From Candidatus Micrarchaeota archaeon (GTDB taxonomy: Archaea; Micrarchaeota; Micrarchaeia; Anstonellales; Bilamarchaeaceae), in assembly GCA_023248035.1 (NCBI GenBank), contig JAHFFJ010000004.1, positions 12,048-54,163 on the forward strand: DNA of 42,116 nucleotides, in the 5' to 3' direction. The position numbers and the translations under genes were made by a program. The notes beneath the pieces were generated by a model, which was given only the letters and a program-made list of their open reading frames with translations, made no database searches and was not told the origin of the DNA. This document shows positions 4,870 through 15,628 of this stretch, piece after piece (position 1 is the stretch's first letter; each line of letters starts with the position of its first letter).

Positions 4870-7662
4870 TTGGGATTTGAAATGGACGTTGACAAAAACT
4901 TACTTAGAAAACAGTTTGGTGCAGAATGGGAAAAGCACTACAAACTTAAAGTCCTGATCGATCGAGGCTTCAAAAGGCAAAAATGTTCCAAATGTTCGCG
5001 CATGTTTTGGGCCAAAGATGGCAGATCGAATGTGGATAAACCTACTTTGTGTGGTGATCCGTCATGCATCGGTTATCAGTTCATAGGCAATACTCCTGTA
5101 AAAAAGAAACTTGGCTATATAGAAACCTGGAAAGAAATTGAAAAATACTTTACAAAAAACGGTCATGGCTATATCAAACCCTATCCAACAGTTGCAAGGT
5201 GGCGGGATGACCTTTACTTTACTATAGCATCGATAAATGATTTCCAGCCCTATGTTGTAAATGGCGAACTAGATCCGCCTGCAAATCCGCTTATTGTTCC
5301 TCAACCATGCATCCGTTTTTCAGATATAAGCAATGTAGGTGTGAGCGGCAGGCACTACACGAATTTCGTCATGGTTGGCCAGCATGCATTTAATACAAAA
5401 AAGAGTGGCCTTTTCTACTGGAAAGAGCAGGCGCTTGAACACGATCTTAATTATCTAAAAGCCCTTGGAATTCCTGAAGATGAAATCATTTTCCAGGAAG
5501 ATGTCTGGGCAGGCGGAGGGAATTTCGGTCCATGCATAGAATATTTCTGTCGGGGTTTAGAGCTTGGTAACTGCGTTTTTATGCAATACGAAACCACCCC
5601 TCCAAATACCAATACTGTTGGTGGAGTTCACTATCGCGAGCTTAATACTAAAGTTATAGATATGGGTGCAGGTCTAAGCAGGCTGGCATGGATCACTTCA
5701 GGCGAACCAACCAGTTACGAAACTGTTTTTGGTCCTGTAATCGACAAGATGAAGAAAAAAGCCGGTGTTTCCATTGACAAGGATCTTTTTGTAAGATTTG
5801 CTAAAATCTCAGGAAGTCTAAATGAAGATGAAGTTCCTGATCTGGAAAAAGAGAAAGAGCGTATCGCTCAAGTTTTGGGTGTAACTAAACGTGAACTTTT
5901 CGATACTCTCGAACCCCTACAGGCTCTTTATGCATCTGCCGATCATTTATGCACCCTCCTCTTTACGGTCACTGATGGTATGCTCCCAAGCAACTCAGGT
6001 GGTGGCTATAATCTTCGGCTCATATTAAGGAGGGTGTTTGGTTTCCAGCAGCGATTTGGTTATGATCTTGATTATTCTGAAATAATGCATGGTCATGCCG
6101 ATTTTCTCGAATATATATTTCCTCATCTTCAAAACGGGGTTGATACTTCACTTGCAGTAATCGAAGAAGAAGCGAAACGCTACCGTGCGACAAAGGAAAA
6201 AGCAACCGGCATGGTTCTAAATATAGTGAAGAAAGCTAAAGGAGCAAGCGCAGGAAAAAACGCAATCCCCAGCAAGGAACTCATAACTCTCTACAAGAGC
6301 CATGGTATTCCACCCGAAGCAATTCAGGAAGTTGCAGCTGAAAACGATGTCGAAGTTGAAATGCCCGGAAATTTCTATAGCCTGGTAAAGGAAAAAGAGG
6401 AGAATCTAAGTCCATCTGAAGACGAAACCAAGCTCGCAAAAATAAGGAATTACACCTCAGATATGAAGAAAACTCTTCTTCTCTATTATAAGGAAGAAAA
6501 CTACCAAAAAGGAGATTTTACTGCCAAAGTGATCCATGTTGATGATAGCACTGGTTTCATTGTTCTTGACCAGACCCTTTTCTATCCTGAGGGTGGCGGT
6601 CAGGTATCTGATAATGGAACTATTGACGGGCATACTGTTGATTCCGTAATAAAAAATTCGGGAATAGTTTTGCATCACGTTGGAAAGGAAGCGATAAAGA
6701 AATTCAAGATTGGTCAGAATGTAAAAGGAGCAGTTAATCTTGCCCGCCGTAAAATTATCTCCCGCCATCACACTGGTGCACATCTGCTCAATGCCGCTTG
6801 TCGTGAGGTTTTAGGACCACATATCTGGCAGGGAGGTTCAAACAAGTCCGAGGAAAAAGCCCACCTTGATGTTACCCACTATCGAAAAATCTCAAACGAT
6901 GAACTTGCACGAATTGAGCAAAAAGTAAATGAATACATCATGGCAAATCTTCCAGTTGTTACTGAAACTCTTGTGCGTAACGAAGCAGAAGCACGTTATG
7001 GGTTTACTATCTACCAGGGAGGAGCGGTGCCAGGAAAAGAGCTGCGTATCGTGAGTATTGGCGAGCCGAAGAAGGAAGTTGATTCTGAGGCATGTGGTGG
7101 AACGCACGGCATGCACAGTCACACTGGCGAACTTGGCTGTTTCAAAATTGTTCGTCGCGAAAGCGTGCAAGATGGGATCGAACGTATAACCTACAAATGC
7201 GGTTCAGTTGCAATAGCCTATATGCAGGAACGCGAGCAATTGCTTCATGAAGCTGCTGGTGTGGTGAGTGTTTCCGAAAATGAGCTCAAACCTACTGTTG
7301 AAAGATTCTTTAACGAATGGAAATCCCAACGCAAGAAAATTGAAGAACTAAGCGAGCTTCTTGTAACCGAAGAGGCAAAAGATTTACTCTCTTCATATTC
7401 CGGAGTGCCTGTAATGAAGATGCTTGATCTGGATGAACCTTCACTCAAGAAACTCGCACTAAAAGTTGCTGAAAGTGATGGAGTTGCATGCTGTCTTCTC
7501 AACAAATCAGGAAATCTAATTTGTGCTGCAGGCAAAAATTCCGGACAAAAAGCAAAAGCAATGCTTGATAGAGTTCTTAGTGAGCTTGGCGGTTCAGGTG
7601 GTGGAAGTGACAGAATTGCACAAGGGAAGGCAAAGACAATAAAAATAGTAAAATTTAGCTGA
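4870..7662 (+). CDS. alaS: Alanine--tRNA ligase (archaeal type)
   Basis: 930-aa ORF with an archaeal AlaRS N-terminal catalytic region, editing-domain HxxxH (SRHHTGAHLLN) and CGGTH motifs, and a C-terminal DHHA1-like end. The likely true start is ATG 4882 (MDVDKNL). Confidence 0.94.
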   Translation: MGFEMDVDKNLLRKQFGAEWEKHYKLKVLIDRGFKRQKCSKCSRMFWAKDGRSNVDKPTLCGDPSCIGYQFIGNTPVKKKLGYIETWKEIEKYFTKNGHGYIKPYPTVARWRDDLYFTIASINDFQPYVVNGELDPPANPLIVPQPCIRFSDISNVGVSGRHYTNFVMVGQHAFNTKKSGLFYWKEQALEHDLNYLKALGIPEDEIIFQEDVWAGGGNFGPCIEYFCRGLELGNCVFMQYETTPPNTNTVGGVHYRELNTKVIDMGAGLSRLAWITSGEPTSYETVFGPVIDKMKKKAGVSIDKDLFVRFAKISGSLNEDEVPDLEKEKERIAQVLGVTKRELFDTLEPLQALYASADHLCTLLFTVTDGMLPSNSGGGYNLRLILRRVFGFQQRFGYDLDYSEIMHGHADFLEYIFPHLQNGVDTSLAVIEEEAKRYRATKEKATGMVLNIVKKAKGASAGKNAIPSKELITLYKSHGIPPEAIQEVAAENDVEVEMPGNFYSLVKEKEENLSPSEDETKLAKIRNYTSDMKKTLLLYYKEENYQKGDFTAKVIHVDDSTGFIVLDQTLFYPEGGGQVSDNGTIDGHTVDSVIKNSGIVLHHVGKEAIKKFKIGQNVKGAVNLARRKIISRHHTGAHLLNAACREVLGPHIWQGGSNKSEEKAHLDVTHYRKISNDELARIEQKVNEYIMANLPVVTETLVRNEAEARYGFTIYQGGAVPGKELRIVSIGEPKKEVDSEACGGTHGMHSHTGELGCFKIVRRESVQDGIERITYKCGSVAIAYMQEREQLLHEAAGVVSVSENELKPTVERFFNEWKSQRKKIEELSELLVTEEAKDLLSSYSGVPVMKMLDLDEPSLKKLALKVAESDGVACCLLNKSGNLICAAGKNSGQKAKAMLDRVLSELGGSGGGSDRIAQGKAKTIKIVKFS

Positions 7663-7984
7663 CTTGCGGTACTGTTTTATTATGTGTTGGTGCTGTTTTT
7701 TCAATCAGTTCAAGTTCAAGTTCCTTTATTTTTTTCACAATCGGACTTTTTTCATTAATCTTATATAATTTTGTCTTGCCAAACGAACGTGTAGGTACGA
7801 CAATTTCAAGTTCAACTATGTTCTCCCAATATTTGTAAAAGGTTGCCTTTGCAAGCTCTGTCCCATCTATTATTTGTTTTTTCGAATAGTCAAATAGCCT
7901 GTTTTCAAGAAGGAAATCAATTATTCTAAGAATGGGTGTATCCCCAAAATATTCTATCAGTACTGATTTCTCATCCTCTTTCAT
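7655..7984 (-). CDS. Winged-helix DNA-binding protein
   Basis: 109-aa ORF. TPILRIIDFLLENRLFDYSKKQIIDGTELAKATFYKYWENIVELEIVVPT is wHTH-like. It is divergent from 8039-8311 across an AT-rich promoter region (tttataaatata). Confidence 0.6.
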   Translation of the reverse strand: MKEDEKSVLIEYFGDTPILRIIDFLLENRLFDYSKKQIIDGTELAKATFYKYWENIVELEIVVPTRSFGKTKLYKINEKSPIVKKIKELELELIEKTAPTHNKTVPQVS

Positions 7985-8038
7985 ATAGTGGTTTACGATT
8001 CGATTATTTATAAATATATACTTTGAAAGGTAAACTCA

Positions 8039-8311
8039 GTGAACTTTATGGTATCAGATTTTGAACTCAAGGCTATGATACTACATAAACTTGCAAAAAA
8101 ACGAAAGTGGGGTGAAAGTCATACTGCATTTGAGAATGTGGCAAAAGGCGTTCCATCACATTTCAGAGGTCGTTTAAAAGAGCTAGCCCAAGAGCTAATC
8201 AAAGAAGGTTTTATAATTCCAAAACCAACAAGTTACGGTTTACAGATTTCACTTAATGTTGCCAGAGCGGATGACATAAAAGATAGGATAAGACACTATT
8301 TTGCAGACTAG
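8039..8311 (+). CDS. Small putative wHTH protein
   Basis: 90-aa ORF (ILHKLAKKRKWGESHTAFENVAKGV...LIKEGFIIPKP), divergently arranged with 7655-7984. Confidence 0.45.
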   Translation: MNFMVSDFELKAMILHKLAKKRKWGESHTAFENVAKGVPSHFRGRLKELAQELIKEGFIIPKPTSYGLQISLNVARADDIKDRIRHYFAD

Positions 8312-9044: not shown

Positions 9045-9423
9045 CTACACCTTTCATTTTTTTGAATTCTGAAATCATTGCTAGTGGCTTCTTTACAATT
9101 ATCTTCTGCTTCTGGAATTTATAAAACAATAGTTTAAGGAATATCAGGAACTCCCTTTTTTTAATGCCCCTGCTATCAAATTCTTTTTGGAGCTTTTCTA
9201 TAGTCTTAAATGATGCTATAAAAAACGAAAGCTGTATGGTACTATCTCCGTTCCAGGTTTTTAATTCTTGATACATGAGCATTCGAACGAGGCCAAGTTT
9301 TGCACGAAGTCTTTTTGATGCTGCATCTTCTCCTTCAACACCAGAGCTGACAAGTTTTAGTGCATGAGCTAAGTGCTCCCACTCGGCATTTGCAAGAGTA
9401 TCTCTAATGTTGCTATTATTCAT
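9019..9423 (-). CDS. Hypothetical protein
   Basis: 134-aa ORF upstream of pgiA and overlapping it by 26 nt. No motif recognised. Confidence 0.4.
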   Translation of the reverse strand: MNNSNIRDTLANAEWEHLAHALKLVSSGVEGEDAASKRLRAKLGLVRMLMYQELKTWNGDSTIQLSFFIASFKTIEKLQKEFDSRGIKKREFLIFLKLLFYKFQKQKIIVKKPLAMISEFKKMKGVVENGHSPI

Positions 9424-9544
9424 CCACTTTACAATAAAGTGAAATTTTCTTAAATCCGACCATAAAAAAAGCCATTTTTTCTGTTTTATCTACATAGAAA
9501 TAGTCAATCTAACATTTCAAAATGAAAAATAGCCCCGGGCAGAT

Positions 9545-9760
9545 TCTCGAGCTTTTGGAAAAAGCTCGACCAAAACGGTCTGCTAATTTTTGCTTTTTTC
9601 TGTACGCTCGCCTTATCGGCTCGCACAGAACTGATAACAAAAATGGTTTACTAAAGTTCAGTAATTTTCCGATAAGGAAAATTCAACTGAACAAAAACCA
9701 AAAACCCGAAAAGGGTTTTCAACAGAAAGTTTTGATCAAAACTTTTTCTAAAAGTTTTGT
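9545..9760 (-). other. tRNA-Gln intron 2, inside the T-loop (~216 nt), full-length modular element
   Basis: It separates GGCAGTTCGA from ATCTGCC; the junction is ambiguous within GAA. It contains H1 (9738-9758), H2 (about 9700-9720), H3 (9656-9692), M (9602-9626), ccaaaacggtctgctaat (9570-9587) and H4 (9547-9569). Confidence 0.7.
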
Positions 9761-9803
9761 TCGAACTGCCGTCAAGAGGTCCAGAACCTCCTATCCTTGA
9801 CCA

Positions 9804-9915
9804 AAGTCTGCACTTTTTTAGGAAAAAAGTGCACAAAAAACTGGTTTGTTATCAGTCAAAAACCCGAAGGGGGTTTCAACACCAATTTTTGATCCAACTT
9901 TTTTTGAAAAAGTTG
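9804..9915 (-). other. tRNA-Gln intron 1, inside the D-loop (~112 nt)
   Basis: It separates GTCTAGCC from TGGTCAAGGAT. It contains hairpins ccaac..gttgg (9894-9916) and gcac..gtgc (9810-9832) and an H2 copy (about 9858-9878). Confidence 0.7.
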
Positions 9916-9955
9916 GGCTAGACGACGGGGCTATAACTGAAATTTGTTTGATAAG

Positions 9956-9965
9956 TAATAAAATA
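9956..9965 (-). promoter_or_regulatory. TATA-like box for tRNA-Gln
   Basis: Minus-strand TATTTTATTA lies 24-33 nt upstream of the tRNA 5' end (9932). Confidence 0.45.
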
Positions 9966-10009
9966 CTACTTATGCGAGCTATTCACTCTGGCAGAATGCT
10001 TAGATGACT

Positions 10010-10135
10010 GTTCAGTAATTTTCCGATAAGGAAAATTCAACTGAACAAAACCAAAAAACGAAACTTATATATAGTGGGAAACTTCTAATAAATGTGTACA
10101 GTTAGTTTTTTGGTTCTTTTTTCCTAAAAAAGAAC
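10010..10135 (-). repeat. Solo (non-tRNA) fragment of the intron element
   Basis: Positions 10010-10046 are a 37/37 identical copy of hairpin H3 (9656-9692; reverse complement at 18665-18701), followed by caaaaccaaaaaa. Positions 10112-10135 are an H-type hairpin, ggttcttttttcctaaaaaagaac. No tRNA exon-like sequence flanks them. Confidence 0.6.
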
Positions 10136-10189
10136 GGTGAATATGATGGTGAATAAGGAGGTTAAGGAAAGGGATTTCCTTCATAGGCA

Positions 10190-10468
10190 GGGATTTACTT
10201 CATTCGGCTCGATTCAAAGGGTCGACTAGTTTTACCTTTGGAAATAAGGGATGCCATAGGAATTGAAACTAATGGCAAAGTTCTGCTAAAAATTGTCACT
10301 AGTGTGAGCGCTAAATCGTCGAATGCAGCAGTAGCAAATTCTAATAGAAAAATTACTATAGAACTAGCGAAAGCTCCGGAGCCACCGTCAACTGATGAAG
10401 TTAATATTTTTCCATATTCTAGAAACGGAGCGTATATCAGAAAAAGGGAGGAAGATAAATATGATTAA
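10190..10468 (+). CDS. AbrB/SpoVT-fold (swapped-hairpin) small protein, start codon unclear
   Basis: The frame is open from 10187 and encodes ..GIYFIRLDSKGRLVLPLEIRDAIGIETNGKVLLKI, i.e. the classic DSKGR(I/L)V(I/L)P.EIR AbrB/MazE signature. The track start (TTG 10238) would cut off this motif. Only ATT codons (10193, 10202) are available upstream. Confidence 0.55.
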   Translation, partial: GIYFIRLDSKGRLVLPLEIRDAIGIETNGKVLLKIVTSVSAKSSNAAVANSNRKITIELAKAPEPPSTDEVNIFPYSRNGAYIRKREEDKYD

Positions 10469-11426
10469 AGTACCACGTCCAGTTCGACCTAGCTACAAAA
10501 ATGAATTTGTAGAAAAAAGAGTGGTTTCCTACATGTTTTTGCCACCAGAAACACCTTACTGTAATACTCGGTGTACCGGTTGTTATGTTTTTGATTCTGG
10601 TTCTTATAGAGCAAGAGTTCAGAGAACAGATGCAGAAATATTATATGATATAGAGAATTTAACGTCAAAAGGTTACACGGTATATCCAACTACAACAGAA
10701 ATATTGATGATGCGAGATTATTTGAGAATTTTACAAACAGTAGGTGCAAAGTCAGTATTAACAAATGGAATATTAATTACTGAACAACCGGAAATATCAG
10801 AACAGCTAAAATCTATTGGAATTGAACAAATTATAATAACGGGAAATTTTGAGAACAGCGGTTTAAGTCTTACCCCAAATAAACTAATCGAAAGAGCGAT
10901 AGATACAATAAATGCTAGCAAACTTGGCATTCTTCTTAGAATAACTATAACTCCGGAAAACCTAGAAGCAATTCCCGATATGGTTCGCTCATGCGCCTCT
11001 AGGGGAATTAGGATAATCGAATTTATGAGGTATGTTCCGCTTGGAAACAGCGGTGCAGTTAGTTTAAATGACGAACAAACAAGGCGATTTTTTTCTATCC
11101 TAGAACAAATGCGTAAAGATTATCCGGATATCTATCTTGCTCCTACTGGAACATTCGGTACTCAATATAGAAAAAAACAATGGAAATGTACCTCCGGTTA
11201 TACCTATTTCGCAATAGGTTTGGATAATCTCGTTTATCCCTGTATCTTTTTGACCCAAGCAGAAAATGCAATTGGCAAGTATGAAGGTGGCGAAATAATT
11301 ATTCAAAGAAATTTCGAAGCCGCAGGTGACCAGTATGATTGCCCAGCCTATAGCTATGCTTCTAGAAGATCTGGTCTAATTCCTGCAAATAAGCTAGTAA
11401 GAAATGGAGGTGTAAAATATGACTAA
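10461..11426 (+). CDS. Radical SAM protein with a short Cys-containing (Twitch/SPASM-like) C-terminal region
   Basis: CNTRCTGCY is the CxxxCxxC motif. The C-terminal part has C-x9-G-x7-C (CTSGYTYFAIGLDNLVYPC) plus one further Cys (DCPAY). The preferred start is ATG 10461, preceded by GGGAGGAAG and overlapping the stop of the previous ORF (ATGATTAA). The track ORF starts at 10395. Confidence 0.8.
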   Translation: MIKVPRPVRPSYKNEFVEKRVVSYMFLPPETPYCNTRCTGCYVFDSGSYRARVQRTDAEILYDIENLTSKGYTVYPTTTEILMMRDYLRILQTVGAKSVLTNGILITEQPEISEQLKSIGIEQIIITGNFENSGLSLTPNKLIERAIDTINASKLGILLRITITPENLEAIPDMVRSCASRGIRIIEFMRYVPLGNSGAVSLNDEQTRRFFSILEQMRKDYPDIYLAPTGTFGTQYRKKQWKCTSGYTYFAIGLDNLVYPCIFLTQAENAIGKYEGGEIIIQRNFEAAGDQYDCPAYSYASRRSGLIPANKLVRNGGVKYD

Positions 11427-11452
11427 AATGAAAAATATGGGAGAGTCTAAGA

Positions 11453-12883
11453 GTGGAGGTCAGAACGGAAGGGATTTACTTCATCTCTCCTAAAAGGGGA
11501 ATAAGTTTTGGTGGTGTAAGTGAACTTACAGAATCTCTTCGTTTGCCCTATGTAACATCGGCTTTAGAAATGCAAAAAGAATTGGAAATCCGTACTGGTG
11601 ATAGAGGAAAAGTTGCAAAAGAAAAAGCCTGCCGTTGGTTATATGATAGATGGGGAGTAAATATATTTCGTGGTTGGTGTATTGATTCTGGTGGCATTGC
11701 AATAGGAAATGAAACTCTAAAAGATTTTTTATCTGCATACTACAGAGGATCAAATATTCGTGGTATGGTAACTATTCCGCAATATGTATTAGACAAGTTT
11801 AAACCAAACGTCGGAATCGATACCCAAATGGAGTTTAAAGGTCTCTGGCTTCCACGTCAAATAGCACGCTTTGATGGAGAAGCACTAACGTCTCTTGCAA
11901 TTGCAAAATCTATGGAGCTTAGAGCTGGAATTCTAGAGTTGACATTAGATGCCTATGCAGATACTGGGTACAAAAGTAGCTTTATTTCGCAATATCAAGT
12001 GGATGAAGCGGGAGGTAAAATATCTACTGTGGAAAGTCCCAGGCCTGAAAGAGGTTTCTGTTTGGCAGATATCAAGAAGCCTGTTACAACACTTTCATAT
12101 GATGGTAATAACACCGAGCTTCGTACGAGGCTTTGCGGACTTCAGAGTTATTATCTATCAGAAATGTTCGTGCCCCTACCTCTTCGAGATCTCCAGTTAC
12201 CTACATACCTGCCAAGTAAGCTCTACATTGACGATCTTACTCCTTGCTATTGTGCAGCATTAGTCCAGAATCTCATGAGCGGAAAAGAACCAATCCCATC
12301 AATTATGGTGAGAGACGGAATTAGATCCACCAAGAACGAAAGCGGTCGAATTACATTCACCAATCTTCGTATTAATGCGAATGTACTTCTCACCCTTAGA
12401 TGGACTGGAGAATGCTATTCCTCTCCTTATGGAAATATCAAACTTACCAAGGATGAGGTTATCCAGCTCGCTTGTACGTTTGATGCCCGACCTTCTGCAG
12501 AATGGAATTATCAAAACCTCTACCTTTTCCTACCTGGTATATTATTTCCAGAAATGGGATTTTTGGTAACTCCATTCGAATTTGATGATGAAAAAATTCT
12601 TGGTGCCACTAAGCGTGCAATAGAATTTGCAAGAGCGGAATTCGGTTTAGCACCACTACTAGTTCCGTTCCTGCCTATGTCATGGCTAAAAAACTCATCA
12701 CTGCTAAAGGCCACATCCAAAGTAGGGAAATACCCGGAATATGCACAATATAAGTTATCTGACCAAACTATTGGATCACTTATTGGGTTAGGGGCGGAAT
12801 CTTCAATAGAAAGGTCAGTTAAACTTGGTTTAGCTCTTGCAGAAATAGTTTCCAGGGATGAAATTAAGGTGAGGAAGCGATGA
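11453..12883 (+). CDS. Hypothetical 476-aa protein (no recognisable family)
   Basis: Long ORF with a GTG start 8 nt after GGGAGAG. Its stop overlaps the next start (ATGA). The N-terminus ..EGIYFIS shares a 14-nt identical motif with the AbrB-like gene. Confidence 0.7.
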   Translation: MEVRTEGIYFISPKRGISFGGVSELTESLRLPYVTSALEMQKELEIRTGDRGKVAKEKACRWLYDRWGVNIFRGWCIDSGGIAIGNETLKDFLSAYYRGSNIRGMVTIPQYVLDKFKPNVGIDTQMEFKGLWLPRQIARFDGEALTSLAIAKSMELRAGILELTLDAYADTGYKSSFISQYQVDEAGGKISTVESPRPERGFCLADIKKPVTTLSYDGNNTELRTRLCGLQSYYLSEMFVPLPLRDLQLPTYLPSKLYIDDLTPCYCAALVQNLMSGKEPIPSIMVRDGIRSTKNESGRITFTNLRINANVLLTLRWTGECYSSPYGNIKLTKDEVIQLACTFDARPSAEWNYQNLYLFLPGILFPEMGFLVTPFEFDDEKILGATKRAIEFARAEFGLAPLLVPFLPMSWLKNSSLLKATSKVGKYPEYAQYKLSDQTIGSLIGLGAESSIERSVKLGLALAEIVSRDEIKVRKR

Positions 12884-13869
12884 AATTCCTACCATCACTT
12901 TTCTGCCTCAATAATGTTCCTCTTGTTAGTGGCTACGAGAGGAATTTTTATGATTCTTTTCTGGAATTACTCAAAGCAGAACTTCCGGAACGTGAAATAA
13001 TCGTTGAAGGTTCAAACTTTATCGTACTACCTGAAAAGGAGGGTAAGTGCGATACTATTCTTGTTGCTCACTATGACCAGGTTGGCCTTGTTGTTGATGC
13101 ACAATACAATCAGAAGCTCTATCGCGCTAAAAAAATTGGTCTACTTAACCCATCATCGGTTTATGGCAAGGTTCTCCAGAGTGTGGTTGATGGTAAAATA
13201 ATTCGGGCAGTTGCTTCTAGTCCTCCACCCCATGTCAAAGCTGAAGAAAGTAGGATTTTTCTGGAACTTGAAGAGCCAATAGAGTTAGCTCCGTTTTGGC
13301 CATTCTCATTCGAAAATCGTATGATAAAGACCCAGTCTAGTATTTTTTCTCCAGCTCTAGACAATAGAATTGGAGTTATCTGCTCAATACAGTGTGCTAA
13401 AAACTATGGAACTGGTCTTCTACTAACTGCAGGTGAGGAAACAGGTACTACTCGCTTGCTGCCATCGTTGGAGAATATCGAGCGAGTGGTAACCAATCCA
13501 AAATACATAGTTGTAGATGCAACTTTTTCAAAATCTGATCCAACCTGTAATGGTTATCTGGGGGATGGCTCAGTTGCATTTATCTCAATTGAAGGTGGAG
13601 GTAGCGGAAACATTGCACCTCAAAATCTAGTAGGCAAAATGAAAAACCTAGCTCTAAAAGAAATCAAAACAGAAGAAAAAGATGCAACTACTGATGCCAC
13701 AACCTTTTATCGTTTAGGGCGAGAAGCTGTTGCAGTAGTCTATCCAATATCCTACATGCACAGTAGCATGGAAAAAATTGAAATTGCAACTATAAGTTCT
13801 CTCTACCGGTTCCTTAGAGCCCTTAACTACAATGGTTTTAATACAATTCCAGAGGATATCATCTTATGA
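12880..13869 (+). CDS. M42-family (TET/FrvX-like) metallopeptidase
   Basis: The motifs VSGYE, AHYDQVGLVV, PPPH, ALDNRIGV, TAGEETG, VVDAT and YMHSSME occur in the M42 order. The positions of the metal ligands H, D, EE, D and H are retained. Confidence 0.75.
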   Translation: MKFLPSLFCLNNVPLVSGYERNFYDSFLELLKAELPEREIIVEGSNFIVLPEKEGKCDTILVAHYDQVGLVVDAQYNQKLYRAKKIGLLNPSSVYGKVLQSVVDGKIIRAVASSPPPHVKAEESRIFLELEEPIELAPFWPFSFENRMIKTQSSIFSPALDNRIGVICSIQCAKNYGTGLLLTAGEETGTTRLLPSLENIERVVTNPKYIVVDATFSKSDPTCNGYLGDGSVAFISIEGGGSGNIAPQNLVGKMKNLALKEIKTEEKDATTDATTFYRLGREAVAVVYPISYMHSSMEKIEIATISSLYRFLRALNYNGFNTIPEDIIL

Positions 13870-15104
13870 AGCTCACACCAAAAGGCATGCGGGATATTGC
13901 CCCTGAGGATATGTTAGTTCGGGAAGACGTAATTGATAAAATCCGTTCCATCTTCAAAAAGTATGGCTATCGTCCTCTGGAAACACCTGCAATGGAATAC
14001 CTAGAAACACTTCGTGCAAAAGCAGGTTCGGAAGCAGATAAGCAGATTTTTGTCCTTGATGGGGGAGAGTACGGACTCAGATTCGATCTCACAGTTCCTC
14101 TTGCCCGCTACGCCTCATCAACTGATGATCCAAAACCATTCAAGAGATATGCAATTGATGTTGTTTGGAGGAAGGAAGAACCACAGCGAGGGAGGTTTAG
14201 GGAATTTTACCAGGCTGATGTGGATATTGTTGGTAGTAGTTCCATGCGTGCTGAAGCTGAGATACTTTCACTTTCAAGAGATGTTTGTTTCGCTTTTGAT
14301 TTTAAAAAACCAAAAATCCTAATCAACAACAGAAAAATCCTAGATGGAATTGCAGCAAAGCTGGGAGTGGAAGAGCAATCAAAAACCGAGCTTTTCCGCA
14401 TACTGGACAAGCTTGATAAAATCGGGGAAGAGGAAGTAGGCAAGCTTCTAAAAGAAGTTTTAGGGTCAAAGGCTGCTGAATTGCTCAAAATAATAAAATC
14501 AAAAGGAGATAACAAAACAAAACTTAAGCTCGCAGCAAAATATAGTGAAGAGGGTGCCCACGAGATCGAAGAATTAATCGCCCTTTGCGATTTTGAAGTA
14601 GAATTCGACATGTTCCTTGTACGGGGGCTTGGTTACTATACAGGTCCTGTTTTCGAGATCAAAATAAGTGCTGATATGGGTTCAATTGCTGGCGGGGGTC
14701 GTTATGATAACCTGCTTGGTGTCTATGGCCAATCATCTCCTGCAGTCGGTATCTCTTTTGGGATTGAACGACTCATCACACTTATTAGTGAGCGTACTAA
14801 ATACAACAAAAAAACTTCCACTCAGGTGCTTGTTAGTGCCGTGAAAACGGAATTTTATCCAAACGCAATTTCTGCTGCTTCCCAACTCCGTAATGGTGGG
14901 GTGGCTGCCGAAACCGATCTTAATGAACGCAATCTTAGGAAGCAGTTCGATTATGCAAATGCACTTGGAATACCTTTTGTTGCAATAATCGGCGAGAGGG
15001 AAATCACAGCAAAAAAAGTAACTTTGCGTGATATGATTTCAGGTAAAGAGGAAACCCTTTCACTTGAAGAAGTAATATCAAAAATAAACGGGCTATCTAA
15101 ATGA
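13866..15104 (+). CDS. hisS: Histidine--tRNA ligase
   Basis: 412-aa ORF with PKGMRDIAPEDM, RYEEPQRGRFREFYQ-like (WRKEEPQRGRFREFYQADVDIVG) and GGGRYDNL motifs. Confidence 0.93.
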   Translation: MKLTPKGMRDIAPEDMLVREDVIDKIRSIFKKYGYRPLETPAMEYLETLRAKAGSEADKQIFVLDGGEYGLRFDLTVPLARYASSTDDPKPFKRYAIDVVWRKEEPQRGRFREFYQADVDIVGSSSMRAEAEILSLSRDVCFAFDFKKPKILINNRKILDGIAAKLGVEEQSKTELFRILDKLDKIGEEEVGKLLKEVLGSKAAELLKIIKSKGDNKTKLKLAAKYSEEGAHEIEELIALCDFEVEFDMFLVRGLGYYTGPVFEIKISADMGSIAGGGRYDNLLGVYGQSSPAVGISFGIERLITLISERTKYNKKTSTQVLVSAVKTEFYPNAISAASQLRNGGVAAETDLNERNLRKQFDYANALGIPFVAIIGEREITAKKVTLRDMISGKEETLSLEEVISKINGLSK

Positions 15105-15628
15105 CGCTGCTAATTCCAATCCTTTACATAAAAGACAAGCAGGTTTTTGCAAAAGAAGGTGGCATGCTTAGGCTTATGGGCAAGCCAATCGATGTGGTGA
15201 AAAAACTTCAGAAAAAAGGGTTCAAGCTCGTTCATTTTGTAGATAGCGATGCGCTGGTGGGCATCACCACAAACATGGACACTTACGATGCACTTACCTA
15301 TTTCATAAATATCCAGGTAGAATGTGCTCCAAATCCAGTATTCATAAAAAAACTGCTATCAATAAAATGCCGGGTGGTTCTTCCTGCTGAGCATTTACCA
15401 AGTGAAAAGAATAAACTGCTTGTTGGAAAAGTTCGAAAAGGTTATGATGGAAAAGCAGAAGGATTTGGTGATGTAATAATCGATCATGACCCATCGCTCG
15501 TGCAAAAATTCATCAAACTCGGTAAGCGAGTTATCGTTTTTGAAGGCTCGAAAAATTATAGTAAAGAATGTAGTAAAGAAATATGGGGCTTACTTCTTTC
15601 TGAGAAGTCTGCTTTTGACAGCAGCTAA
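15101..15628 (+). CDS. HisA/HisF-like (beta/alpha)-barrel family protein, short (175 aa)
   Basis: LLIPILYIKDKQVFAKEGG...GKPIDVVKKLQKKGFKLVHFVDSDALVG parallels the HisA N-terminus (IIPAIDLKDGK.VRL.QG....DP...A......GA..LHLVDLDGA). Its start overlaps the hisS stop (ATGA-type). Confidence 0.45.
   Translation: MTLLIPILYIKDKQVFAKEGGMLRLMGKPIDVVKKLQKKGFKLVHFVDSDALVGITTNMDTYDALTYFINIQVECAPNPVFIKKLLSIKCRVVLPAEHLPSEKNKLLVGKVRKGYDGKAEGFGDVIIDHDPSLVQKFIKLGKRVIVFEGSKNYSKECSKEIWGLLLSEKSAFDSS

What the first reader, a model, noticed from the sequence alone, without database searches (positions are those of the whole stretch)
10143..13869. Translationally coupled cluster: AbrB-like protein, radical SAM enzyme, unknown 476-aa protein and M42 peptidase, running into hisS
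Four co-directional genes have overlapping stop/start codons (ATGATTAA at 10461; ATGA at 12880 and 13866). The partners are a radical SAM enzyme with an auxiliary-Cys C-terminal region, a metallo-aminopeptidase with its ligand positions intact, a large protein I cannot assign to any family, and an AbrB-fold DNA-binding protein. This combination is the kind of context seen for peptide- or cofactor-maturation systems. Two short ORFs share a (E/G)RD(F/L)LH core. They are 10143-10229 (MMVNKEVKERDFLHRQGFTSFGSIQRVD, GGTGA 5 nt upstream) and 11428-11493 (MKNMGESKSGGQNGRDLLHLS). They sit immediately before the AbrB-like and the 476-aa genes and could be candidate substrate or leader peptides, or merely by-products of the repeated DNA motif.
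Basis: partly seen in the sequence, partly recalled or inferred. Interest (0 to 1): 0.65.

Follow-up and report, generated by a model that had tools for sequence, protein, structure and literature searches.

The report
Histidine-sensing frameshift leader, archaeal operon
The two tiny ORFs are not peptide precursors: they carry a conserved 15-base signal ending in a histidine codon that heads histidine operons in Micrarchaeota, and it most likely makes ribosomes slip one base forward when histidine is scarce, which would be a new kind of amino-acid sensor.

Summary
The genes, the overlapping stops and starts, and the shared (E/G)RD(F/L)LH ORFs are all there. The peptide-maturation reading does not hold.

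The repeated element is a 15-nt unit, A[GA]GG[AG]T-NNN-CTT-CAY, present three times in the window: twice in tandem before the AbrB-like gene and once before the 476-aa gene. The same unit, with the same frame geometry, occurs in 14 distinct Micrarchaeota loci. In most loci where the contig extends far enough it sits ahead of histidine genes: hisDCBGHAF, hisG or hisS. It is found with or without the radical SAM enzyme, the 476-aa protein or the M42 peptidase.

A well-initiated small ORF reads each unit as x-x-x-Leu-His, and the downstream gene always lies in the +1 frame. Two units bring the ribosome into the AbrB frame, which lacks a usable start codon in the window and at least four other lineages. 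The unit resembles the prfB +1 frameshift site (Shine-Dalgarno-like stretch, 3-nt spacer, CUU, slow codon), with a His codon in place of the stop.

Best explanation, about 0.5: His-tRNA-sensing programmed +1 frameshifting. Rivals are a stalling leader peptide without a shift and a DNA operator. The 476-aa protein belongs to a rare family with no Pfam match and no solved structural relative.

The parts
10065..10081 (+). Promoter-like block: TATA-like TTATATATA followed by AGTGGGAAA
   Evidence: The block (A/T-rich TATA)+AGTGGGAAA is conserved upstream of the leader in nearly all related loci (alignment). Its function is inferred, not tested.
10136..10148 (+). Shine-Dalgarno GGTGA and the start of small ORF 1 (ATG 10143, ATG 10146)
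   Evidence: The string (GGTGA)-N3-5-ATGGTGAA is conserved in position across the loci.
10143..10229 (+). Small ORF 1 (frame 0), MMVNKEVKERDFLHRQGFTSFGSIQRVD. It reads unit 1 as ERDFLH and stops at TAG 10227-10229.
   Evidence: The stop TAG lies inside the AbrB Leu codon CTA, which is invariant in 13 of 13 intact orthologues although neighbouring codons vary.
10170..10184 (+). Unit 1: AGGGAT TTC CTT CAT (SD-like hexamer, 3-nt spacer, slip codon CTT 10179-10181, His codon 10182-10184)
10189..10203 (+). Unit 2: AGGGAT TTA CTT CAT, 19 nt after unit 1. It is read as GRDLLH only in the +1 frame (CTT 10198-10200, CAT 10201-10203).
   Evidence: The spacing is 19 nt in 13 loci and 16 nt in one; both equal 1 modulo 3.
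10199..10468 (+). AbrB/SpoVT-like coding frame (frame +2), (F)IRLDSKGRLVLPLEIRDAIGIE... It has no canonical start between the stop at 10184-10186 and TTG 10238.
10204..10225 (+). Hairpin directly 3' of unit 2, followed by CTAGTTTTAC
   Evidence: Other loci have hairpins here in other registers, and no consensus structure was found. Its role is unknown.
10461..11426 (+). Radical SAM enzyme, 321 aa, with CX3CX2C plus four conserved extra Cys (twitch/partial-SPASM-like)
11419..11493 (+). Small ORF 2, MTKMKNMGESKSGGQNGRDLLHLS. SD GGAGGTG lies at 11406-11412, the start overlaps the rSAM stop, and the ORF stops at TAA 11491-11493.
11470..11484 (+). Unit 3: AGGGAT TTA CTT CAT (CTT 11479-11481, CAT 11482-11484). 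The 476-aa frame is +1 relative to it.
11453..12883 (+). Protein X (476 aa counted from GTG 11453; under the frameshift model it is entered at 11480). It belongs to a rare, unassigned family.
12880..13869 (+). M42-family metallo-aminopeptidase, 329 aa
13866..15104 (+). Histidyl-tRNA synthetase (hisS)
15101..15628 (+). Short HisA/HisF-like protein, 175 aa, coupled to hisS
   Evidence: weak hits. The same gene follows hisS (directly or one gene later) in L001 and L008.

Best explanation
The window holds the head of a histidine-starvation operon of a Micrarchaeota (DPANN) archaeon: AbrB-like regulator, rSAM, X, M42, hisS and a HisA-like gene. Its expression is gated by three copies of a recoding signal.

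Each unit consists of:
- a Shine-Dalgarno-like hexamer (AGGGAT);
- a 3-nt spacer;
- the Leu codon CUU;
- a His codon CAY.

Proposed sequence of events:
1. A short, efficiently initiated ORF brings ribosomes onto the unit.
2. When charged tRNA-His is plentiful, CAY is read. The ribosome stays in frame and terminates a few codons later, so the downstream frame is not translated.
3. When His-tRNA(His) is scarce, the A site stays empty. Peptidyl-tRNA-Leu(GAG) re-pairs one base forward (CUU to UUC, which pairs equally well), helped by the rRNA pairing 3 nt upstream as in bacterial prfB.
4. Translation then continues in the +1 frame.

Two units in tandem (frame 0 to +1 to +2) are needed to make the AbrB-like protein, which gives a steep response. 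One unit gates X and, through the overlapping stop/start codons, adds to the translation of M42, hisS and the HisA-like gene.

Shown: the anatomy, its conservation, the frame geometry and the histidine context. Inferred: the slip itself, its dependence on histidine, and the role of the AbrB-like protein as a starvation-induced regulator (possibly acting on the conserved AGTGGGAAA box). The biochemical roles of rSAM, X and M42 remain unknown; histidine scavenging is a guess.
For: Distribution and context
- A scan for the tandem unit in 185,579 species genomes returned only three contigs, all Candidatus Micrarchaeota. A metagenome scan and a search for AbrB homologues bring the total to 14 distinct loci.
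- The genes downstream are histidine genes wherever the contig reaches them: hisD-hisC/HAD-hisB-hisG-hisH(-hisA-hisF) in L004 and L017; hisG in L006; Y-racemase-hisD-hisS in L008; Y-racemase-hisS in L020; rSAM-X-hisS in the window and L001.

Frame geometry
- In all 14 tandem loci a small ORF with an SD and ATG (GTG in two) reads unit 1 as xxxLH.
- Unit 2 is read that way only in the +1 frame.
- Where the sequence is long enough to show it, the AbrB-like domain lies in +2.
- One locus has 16-nt instead of 19-nt spacing, which changes the helical phase but keeps the frame.
- At all five single units (before the unrelated families X, Y and Z) the long ORF is +1 to a small ORF that has its own SD or overlaps the upstream stop.

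Start codons
- The AbrB frame has no canonical start in the window, L006 and L013. In L017/L021 and L020 the only one lies at or before the expected transcript start.
- Where candidate starts exist, they sit at inconsistent positions. Some units have ATC where others have ATG.
- The AbrB frame is nevertheless clearly translated from just after unit 2, because synonymous changes run throughout it.

Sequence constraints
- CTT and CAY are invariant in all 32 catalogued copies, and the His wobble varies C/T. The hexamer varies (AGGGAT, AGGGGT, AAGGAT, AGGTGT, GGTGGA) but stays SD-like.
- The median duplex energy to GAUCACCUCCU is -7.4 kcal/mol, a value reached by 3.4% of background 11-mers. The pairing ends 3 nt before CUU, as in prfB AGGGGG-UAU-CUU-UGA.

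Selection on the other two frames
- The frame-0 stop TAG is kept by an invariant Leu codon CTA in 13 of 13 AbrB genes.
- The +1 frame stops within five codons of unit 2's His codon in 12 of 14 loci, through four different sequence contexts.

Supporting details
- tRNA-Leu(GAG) exists in these organisms (L017).
- L024 carries a 2-nt insertion that hard-wires frame 0 into +1 at unit 1.
- The DNA is confirmed by independent assemblies.
Against: - There is no expression, proteomic or ribosome-profiling evidence. The one metatranscriptome from the same sample has no reads here.
- According to a comprehensive review, no natural case of regulatory 'hungry-codon' frameshifting is known (PMC5009743). 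In archaea only one -1 case has been demonstrated (PMC8211752).
- Several lineages could make AbrB without any shift. L001, L004 and L007 have an ATG inside unit 2, L025 and L026 a GTG, and L014 and L027 an upstream ATG in an open AbrB frame.
- X has a possible own start: GTG 11453 with GGGAGAG 7 nt upstream in the window, and an ATG just after the unit in L001.
- L008 keeps perfect tandem units although its AbrB gene has decayed.
- In L024 unit 2 is degenerate, with no route into the AbrB frame.
- The SD argument assumes the usual archaeal 16S 3' end, which was not available for this organism.
- An essential gene (hisS) lies downstream of the gates. It has its own SD-like GAGGAT 8 nt upstream of its ATG (seen in the sequence).
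Confidence: 0.5

Rival explanations
1. A histidine-sensing leader peptide without a frameshift. Ribosomes translating the small ORFs pause at the single His codon. The pause changes the access of other ribosomes, or of the transcription and termination machinery, to what follows. It could act by holding open the hairpin that starts 0-1 nt after the His codon (attenuation-like). Alternatively it could occlude the start of an AbrB-like repressor, so that starvation lowers the repressor level. In this reading AbrB and X start at codons in or near the unit (AUG, GUG or near-cognate AUU).
For: - The histidine context and the conserved, well-initiated small ORFs fit this as well as they fit frameshifting.
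- A hairpin followed by GTTTT comes directly after unit 2 and unit 3 in the window. Other loci have hairpins after unit 2, and the Lys codon AAG is invariant.
- In three loci the +1 frame stops immediately after the His codon, as at the end of a classical leader peptide.
- About half of the loci have an ATG or GTG in the AbrB frame in or near the units.
- In L001 the ATG of X lies in a 7-bp hairpin just after the unit (sequence).
Against: - It does not explain why CTT, rather than any Leu codon, is invariant. It also does not explain why an SD-like hexamer sits exactly 3 nt upstream, or why every downstream gene is in the +1 frame.
- In the window, L006, L013, L017/L021 and L020 no usable start codon exists for AbrB, and some units carry ATC.
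- A ribosome stalled at CAY would cover starts lying within about 15 nt and so repress them, which is the wrong sign for hisDCBGHAF.
- One His codon per unit is a weak sensor for attenuation.
- The T tract is only 4 nt, and it reads TCTT in four loci.
- RNAalifold finds no consensus structure.
Confidence: 0.25
2. The repeat is a DNA operator for a histidine-responsive transcription factor, either the adjacent AbrB-like protein or a factor encoded elsewhere. On this view the small ORFs are accidental.
For: - The element is conserved at the nucleotide level and occurs as direct repeats.
- It lies 35-100 nt downstream of a conserved TATA/AGTGGGAAA block and next to a gene for a DNA-binding fold.
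- L008 keeps the tandem copies although its AbrB gene has decayed.
Against: - All copies are on the coding strand, inside ORFs that have conserved SD and ATG signals.
- The 16-nt spacing variant changes the helical phase by about 100 degrees but preserves the reading frame.
- Variable positions follow a codon pattern: the spacer's third base and the His wobble.
- Single copies lie deep inside operons at gene junctions that have no promoter block.
- Stops in frames 0 and +1 are under selection, which a DNA site does not predict.
Confidence: 0.1
3. One reading: a RiPP or cofactor-maturation cluster. The small ORFs would be precursor peptides with an RD(F/L)LH core, modified by the radical SAM enzyme, processed by the M42 peptidase and regulated by AbrB.
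For: - The rSAM gives weak best hits to SPASM-type peptide maturases: rSAM_ACGX, SkfB and PapB in NCBIfam and SkfB 6efn at E=0.009.
- A small ORF directly precedes X.
- X-like proteins pair with MH-clan peptidase-like genes in two distant genomes.
Against: - The motif occurs without rSAM, X or a peptidase at plain histidine operons.
- The 'core' residues R-D are not conserved as amino acids, whereas the nucleotides of CTT-CAY are.
- The tandem copies are in different frames.
- The small-ORF sequence outside the unit is not conserved.
- M42 is unique to the window, and the rSAM is absent from another AbrB-X-hisS locus.
- There is no PF13186 SPASM hit.
Confidence: 0.03

Closest known systems
Programmed +1 frameshift site of bacterial prfB (release factor 2): AGG GGG UAU CUU UGA C
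   Same: Same order and spacing of elements: an internal Shine-Dalgarno-like stretch, a 3-nt spacer, CUU in the P site slipping to the overlapping +1 codon, and a slowly decoded A-site codon whose decoding rate is the sensed quantity. The downstream frame has no start of its own. The logic is that of a sensor and effector combined.
   Different: Here the sensor codon is a sense codon (His, CAY), not a stop. The sensed quantity would therefore be charged tRNA-His, not a release factor. Units are used in tandem (two shifts) and repeated within one operon. The host is an archaeon. The controlled genes are a regulator and a histidine regulon, not the factor that decodes the site.
his operon leader peptide (hisL) transcription attenuation of enterobacteria
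   Same: A short ORF at the very head of a histidine operon whose translation reports the supply of His-tRNA(His).
   Different: hisL has seven consecutive His codons and alternative terminator/antiterminator hairpins (established knowledge). Here there is one His codon per unit and no conserved alternative structures. The inferred output is a change of reading frame.
Ty1 (CUU AGG C) and other eukaryotic +1 sites driven by a slowly decoded sense codon; 'hungry-codon' frameshifting in starved E. coli
   Same: tRNA-Leu slips forward from CUU while the A site waits for a scarce aminoacyl-tRNA.
   Different: In Ty1 the scarcity is constitutive (a rare tRNA). Hungry-codon shifting in E. coli is regarded as an error, and no natural regulatory use is known (PMC5009743).
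T-box riboswitches and HisR repressors controlling hisS and his operons in Gram-positive bacteria (PMC9413887)
   Same: The same regulon logic: biosynthesis genes and hisS respond together to histidine or tRNA-His charging.
   Different: No T-box or other Rfam family is detected here, and the element is translated.
Radical SAM/SPASM peptide-maturase clusters (SkfB, PapB and similar)
   Same: A radical SAM enzyme with extra C-terminal cysteines lies next to small ORFs and a peptidase.
   Different: The small ORFs are independent of the enzyme, are not conserved as peptides, and belong to histidine operons.

Membership tests
prfB-type programmed +1 frameshift site | P-site codon whose tRNA can re-pair in the +1 frame (CUU N) | tested here: met
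   CTT is invariant in all 32 catalogued copies and is always followed by C. With anticodon GAG, both CUU and UUC give one G-C, one A-U and one G-U pair. A tRNA-Leu(GAG) gene was found in L017.
prfB-type programmed +1 frameshift site | Internal Shine-Dalgarno-like sequence 3 nt upstream of the shift codon | tested here: met
   Median predicted duplex energy to GAUCACCUCCU is -7.4 kcal/mol, against a background mean of -2.0. The pairing ends 3 nt before CUU. The 16S 3' end is assumed, not read from this genome.
prfB-type programmed +1 frameshift site | A-site codon is an in-frame stop (UGA) read by the regulated factor | tested here: not met
   The A-site codon is His CAY in every copy. This is therefore not a prfB site but, at most, works like one.
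prfB-type programmed +1 frameshift site | Downstream ORF in +1 without its own initiation codon; orthologues with a fused frame | tested here: inconclusive
   The +1 relation holds at every unit. A start codon is lacking in about five lineages but candidates exist in others. L024 fuses frames at unit 1 only.
prfB-type programmed +1 frameshift site | Trans-frame protein product demonstrated | not testable with these tools
   No proteome or ribosome-profiling data are available, and the metatranscriptome is empty at this locus.
Amino-acid operon leader peptide (attenuation, hisL type) | Run of several consecutive regulatory codons | tested here: not met
   There is one His codon per unit and one in each small ORF.
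Amino-acid operon leader peptide (attenuation, hisL type) | Mutually exclusive terminator and antiterminator structures | tested here: not met
   RNAalifold finds no consensus pairs in 11 leaders. Only a simple hairpin plus T4 is seen in the window.
T-box riboswitch | Match to the Rfam T-box covariance model | tested here: not met
   No Rfam hit at gathering threshold in the window. Nothing relevant at E<=1 in 9400-10300.
RiPP cluster with rSAM/SPASM maturase | Precursor peptide co-occurs with the maturase and is conserved as a peptide | tested here: not met
   The motif is found without the rSAM in L004, L006, L008, L017 and L020. The R-D residues vary while the nucleotides CTT-CAY do not.
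RiPP cluster with rSAM/SPASM maturase | SPASM domain (PF13186; 7-Cys motif) | tested here: not met
   There is no PF13186 hit. Only four extra conserved Cys are present, which fits a twitch-like single auxiliary cluster at most.
Radical SAM superfamily | PF04055 at or above cut-off, and CX3CX2C | tested here: met
   29.9 bits against a cut-off of 29.5. C34-X3-C38-X2-C41 is invariant in three orthologues.
Peptidase M42 | PF05343 above cut-off, with metal-ligand motifs | tested here: met
   66.5 bits against a cut-off of 23.2. Alignment to TET1 2cf4 shows the His, Asp, Glu-Glu, Asp and His motifs present.
AbrB/MazE/SpoVT swapped-hairpin DNA-binding domain | Pfam or TIGRFAM model at or above cut-off | tested here: inconclusive
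   PF04014 scores 18.7 bits (cut-off 24.7) and TIGR01439 scores 21.3 bits (cut-off 28.3). Homologues are annotated as AbrB family by one source, and two carry PF04014.

The most novel reading that the evidence does not exclude
Micrarchaeota regulate their histidine regulon (biosynthesis operon, hisS and accessory genes) by programmed +1 ribosomal frameshifting at SD-like-N3-CUU-CAY units. These units would read the charging level of tRNA-His directly and are used singly or in tandem. This would be the first natural regulatory use of hungry-codon frameshifting, the first cellular +1 recoding signal in archaea, and a modular design that could in principle be retargeted to any amino acid by changing one codon.
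Probability: 0.45. Interest if true: 0.9.

Novelty: new variant of a known kind. Interest (0 to 1): 0.8.

Why it matters
How archaea sense amino-acid supply and control biosynthetic operons is largely unknown. Leader-peptide attenuation and T-boxes are bacterial devices.

A frameshift unit whose sensor is a sense codon would link two classical paradigms: the prfB/antizyme type of sensor and his-operon attenuation. It would supply the example that a major review of recoding states is missing (PMC5009743), and it would add a +1 case to the single -1 case demonstrated in archaea (PMC8211752).

It also matters for annotation. In these genomes, gene callers give the AbrB-like and downstream genes arbitrary or truncated starts and call the leader ORFs as hypothetical genes. 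The unit is only 15 nt long and would be easy to test and to re-engineer.

Separately, X, Y, the rSAM and the short HisA-like protein become candidates for unknown steps of histidine acquisition in reduced-genome archaea.

Tried and rejected
- RiPP precursor reading: rejected on distribution and on the lack of peptide conservation.
- Assembly or sequencing error as the cause of the frame breaks: rejected. Two independent assemblies are identical, and 14 loci share the geometry.
- Deletion of one 19-nt repeat unit (slippage between repeats) as the route into the AbrB frame: rejected. It would lead to frame +1, not +2 (arithmetic).
- ATK inside the unit as a conserved start codon: weakened. The same base is G, T or C, and G is no commoner in unit 2 than in units 1 or 3. 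L025 and L027 have ATC.
- Known RNA families and tRNA: none found at the leader.
- Conserved RNA secondary structure of the leader: none found by RNAalifold.
- Analogous units with other sensor codons: not seen in the window, L001, L004, L006, L008, L017 or L020.
- Function of X: no Pfam in any of the 26 family members and no PDB sequence hit. Two AlphaFold models (pLDDT 78.8, and 96.4 for the homologue P0006) have no Foldseek PDB match better than E=0.02 and TM 0.27. X is not related to protein Y of L008.
- RNA evidence: the only metatranscriptome from the same sample has no reads on the locus.
- Literature: no description of this element was found.

Full report
**1. The observation**

The region reads as the first stage described. 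An AbrB-like frame ends at 10468 and overlaps the start of a radical SAM gene (10461-11426). A 476-aa ORF (11453-12883, here called X), an M42 peptidase (12880-13869) and hisS (13866-15104) follow with ATGA overlaps. A further ATGA overlap leads into a 175-aa HisA-like gene (15101-15628).

HMM searches gave these assignments:
- radical SAM: PF04055, 29.9 bits, just above the cut-off;
- M42: PF05343, 66.5 bits;
- hisS: confirmed;
- AbrB/MazE models: sub-threshold only;
- X: nothing.

The M42 protein aligns with TET1 and has its ligand motifs in place. The rSAM has CX3CX2C plus four further conserved Cys.

The shared (E/G)RD(F/L)LH core of the two small ORFs comes from a DNA repeat that has three copies, not two: 10170-10184, 10189-10203 and 11470-11484. 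That is 3 matches against 0.23 expected, and no shuffle reaches 3. The AbrB-like frame has no canonical start codon between the stop at 10184-10186 and TTG 10238. That TTG would cut off the conserved first strand (RLDSKGRLVLP). Independent assemblies of two groundwater metagenomes reproduce the sequence exactly.

**2. Relatives**

X has one relative in the 5.8-billion-protein index (31% identity, a Candidatus Micrarchaeota MAG) and 26 relatives in an exhaustive profile search.

The MAG locus (L001) is syntenic: alanyl-tRNA synthetase, cupin-type GPI, a 135-aa protein, AbrB-like, rSAM, a small ORF, X, hisS, and a HisA-like gene. It has no M42. Proteins there are only 31-42% identical to the window's, yet the 15-nt repeat is present at the same three places almost unchanged.

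**3. The link to histidine**

A scan of one genome per species for the tandem repeat returned three contigs, all Micrarchaeota. A metagenome scan and a search with the AbrB-like protein brought the set to 14 distinct loci.

What follows the tandem repeat and the AbrB-like gene:

| Locus | Downstream genes |
|---|---|
| L004, L017 | hisD, hisC/HAD, hisB, hisG, hisH (in L017 also hisA, hisF) |
| L006 | hisG |
| L008 | unknown protein Y, an Asp/Glu racemase-like protein, hisD, hisS |
| L020 | unknown protein Y, an Asp/Glu racemase-like protein, hisS |
| L025 | the rSAM |
| window, L001 | rSAM, X, hisS |

Another contig has a 95-aa gene, X and hisS without the rSAM.

The element is therefore a feature of histidine operons, not of the rSAM/X/M42 set. 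This removes the basis for reading the small ORFs as RiPP precursors.

**4. Anatomy of the unit**

Across the 32 catalogued copies, CTT and CAY never change, and the His wobble is C or T. The three bases before CTT vary like a codon for Leu, Phe or Val: TTA, GTA, TTC, GTC, CTG and others. The hexamer before that varies between AGGGAT, AGGGGT, AAGGAT, AGGTGT and GGTGGA. As amino acids the hexamer would read RD, RG, KD, RC or GG, so no peptide is conserved.

As RNA the hexamer stays complementary to the usual archaeal 16S 3' end. The median duplex energy is -7.4 kcal/mol, a value reached by 3.4% of background 11-mers. The pairing ends exactly 3 nt before CUU.

This is the architecture of the prfB +1 frameshift site (AGGGGG-UAU-CUU-UGA-C), with a His codon where prfB has a stop.

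**5. Frame geometry**

In every tandem locus a small ORF starts 4-11 codons upstream of CTT in unit 1. It has an SD (GGTGA) and an ATG (GTG in two loci), within a conserved string ...GGTGAAnnnGATGGTGAA..., and it reads unit 1 as xxx-Leu-His. Unit 2 lies 19 nt further on (16 nt in L026; both equal 1 modulo 3), so it is read as xxx-Leu-His only in the +1 frame. Where the sequence is long enough to show it, the AbrB-like domain follows in frame +2.

At the five single units the same rule holds. These precede X in the window and L001, Y in L008 and L020, and a third family in L013. A small ORF with its own SD, or overlapping the upstream stop, reads the unit in frame, and the long ORF is in +1. 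One forward slip per unit accounts for every case.

**6. All three frames matter**

- The AbrB frame is translated from just after unit 2, because synonymous substitutions run through RLDSKGRLVLPLEIR.
- The Leu codon in R-L-V is CTA in 13 of 13 intact genes, while the neighbouring Arg, Val, Leu and Pro codons vary. CTA-G supplies the TAG that ends the small ORF in frame 0.
- Frame +1 stops within five codons after the His codon of unit 2 in 12 of 14 loci, through four different sequence contexts.
- In the window, L004, L006, L007 and L008 the AbrB frame is closed by a stop between the two units.
- Candidate start codons for AbrB are absent in the window, L006 and L013. In L017/L021 and L020 they lie only at or before the expected transcript start. 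Elsewhere they sit at inconsistent positions: an ATG inside unit 2, a GTG inside the hexamer, or an upstream ATG.

**7. Mechanism proposed (inferred)**

With His-tRNA(His) abundant, CAY is decoded, the ribosome stays in frame and terminates nearby. With His-tRNA scarce, the A site is empty and peptidyl-tRNA-Leu slips from CUU to UUC. For anticodon GAG this is an even exchange of pairs, and such a tRNA gene lies just upstream of the leader in L017. The slip would be assisted by the rRNA pairing 3 nt upstream.

Two units in series would make synthesis of the AbrB-like protein depend on the square of the slip frequency. The overlapping stops and starts would pass the effect to downstream cistrons, which also have their own SD-like sequences. 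The AbrB-like protein would be a starvation-induced regulator. In L021/L022 it is not followed by his genes, which suggests action in trans. A conserved AGTGGGAAA box after the TATA element is a candidate target.

**8. Weak points and rivals**

Nothing has been shown experimentally, and the one metatranscriptome is empty here. Several lineages could start AbrB or X conventionally. L008 keeps the tandem units beside a decayed AbrB gene. L024 is an unexplained variant: a 2-nt insertion fuses frame 0 to +1 at unit 1, and unit 2 is degenerate.

- **Stalling leader peptide without a shift.** This is the main rival. A hairpin begins directly after units 2 and 3 in the window and in other registers elsewhere. 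However, no consensus structure is found, the T tract is short and not conserved, and a stalled ribosome would cover nearby starts. This reading also leaves the invariance of CTT and the SD spacing unexplained.
- **DNA operator.** This fits the nucleotide conservation. It does not fit the frame-preserving 16-nt variant, the codon-like variation, the selection on stops, or the copies deep inside operons.

**9. The accessory genes**

- X is a rare family. It has no Pfam match in any member, and confident models (pTM 0.81; pLDDT 96 and pTM 0.92 for the homologue P0006) have no significant PDB neighbour. X precedes hisS in three lineages, directly or with M42 between, and is paired with an MH-clan peptidase-like gene in a distant genome.
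- The rSAM family has eight members in the index. Its distant members sit in an unrelated multi-rSAM/polyamine-like cluster.
- Their roles are unknown. Histidine scavenging is a guess based only on co-regulation.

**10. Literature**

Searches found no description of this element. Atkins et al. 2016 state that no example is known of hungry-codon frameshifting producing starvation-specific trans-frame proteins (PMC5009743). De Lise et al. 2021 list a single demonstrated -1 case in archaea (PMC8211752).

**Verdict**

The region is best read as a histidine-responsive translational leader, probably a tandem +1 frameshift sensor, at the head of a histidine-starvation operon. I put about 0.75-0.8 on a translated histidine-sensing leader of some kind, and about 0.5 on the frameshift mechanism specifically.

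Noticed in passing
window 9424-10140 (especially about 9760-9940, minus strand; repeats at 9656-9705 and 10010-10059): A 700-bp stretch without a gene holds a 50-nt direct repeat with 354-nt spacing. It also holds a segment conserved with L001 5990-6185. In L001, on the minus strand, that segment reads like a tRNA with a long non-canonical intron (acceptor AGCCCCG, T arm GGTTCGAATCC). ARAGORN and Rfam find nothing there.
   Followed up: partly
L017 169-252: A tRNA-Leu(GAG) gene lies immediately upstream of the his leader. This is the tRNA that would read CUU and slip to UUC.
   Followed up: no
window 10226-10228 and the equivalent codon in 12 other loci: The Leu codon of the AbrB R-L-V motif is CTA in 13 of 13 genes, and the Lys codon two positions before it is always AAG, although neighbouring synonymous sites vary freely. 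CTA-G forms the stop of the overlapping small ORF. The AAG constraint is unexplained; it may pair with the Leu codon CTT/CTC in a hairpin.
   Followed up: partly
window 10204-10225 and 11486-11500: A hairpin followed by GTTTT lies directly after the His codon of unit 2 and of unit 3. It could be a 3' stimulator, a pause site or an attenuator. Other loci have hairpins in different registers.
   Followed up: partly
window 15101-15628; L001 11762-12307; L008 4002-4514 (minus strand): A short (170-181 aa) protein with only a weak N-terminal HisA/HisF match is conserved just downstream of hisS (one gene further on in L001). It is too short to form a full (beta-alpha)8 barrel.
   Followed up: no
L008 7820-8968 (minus strand) and 7071-8198 (minus strand); L020 4113-5117 and 5075-5812: In other lineages the place of rSAM+X is taken by another unassigned protein family (Y, 334-382 aa) plus an Asp/Glu racemase-like gene. 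These are also entered through a single His unit.
   Followed up: partly
L013 (reverse strand), from about 2540 to the contig end: A third gene family follows a single His unit. It contains GCTLKNRNVGCKFC, possibly an unusual Fe-S or radical-SAM-like motif. The AbrB gene in this contig has an internal TAA.
   Followed up: no
L024 233-300: In this variant leader a 2-nt insertion (CTTTTCAC for CTTCAC) joins frame 0 to frame +1 at unit 1. Unit 2 has lost both CTT and CAT (CGT TAT plus 3 nt). This may be a decayed or rewired leader, or an assembly artefact of a 526-nt contig.
   Followed up: no
window 10073-10081 and the aligned position in 12 loci: AGTGGGAAA immediately after the TATA-like element is conserved across loci whose proteins are only 30-50% identical. 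It is a candidate binding site for a regulator.
   Followed up: no
L028 1-6900: The most distant homologues of the rSAM sit after a 50-aa ORF in a cluster with three other radical SAM genes, BpsA_C, AdoMet decarboxylase, HAD and acetyltransferases. This looks like a small-molecule or peptide pathway unrelated to histidine.
   Followed up: no
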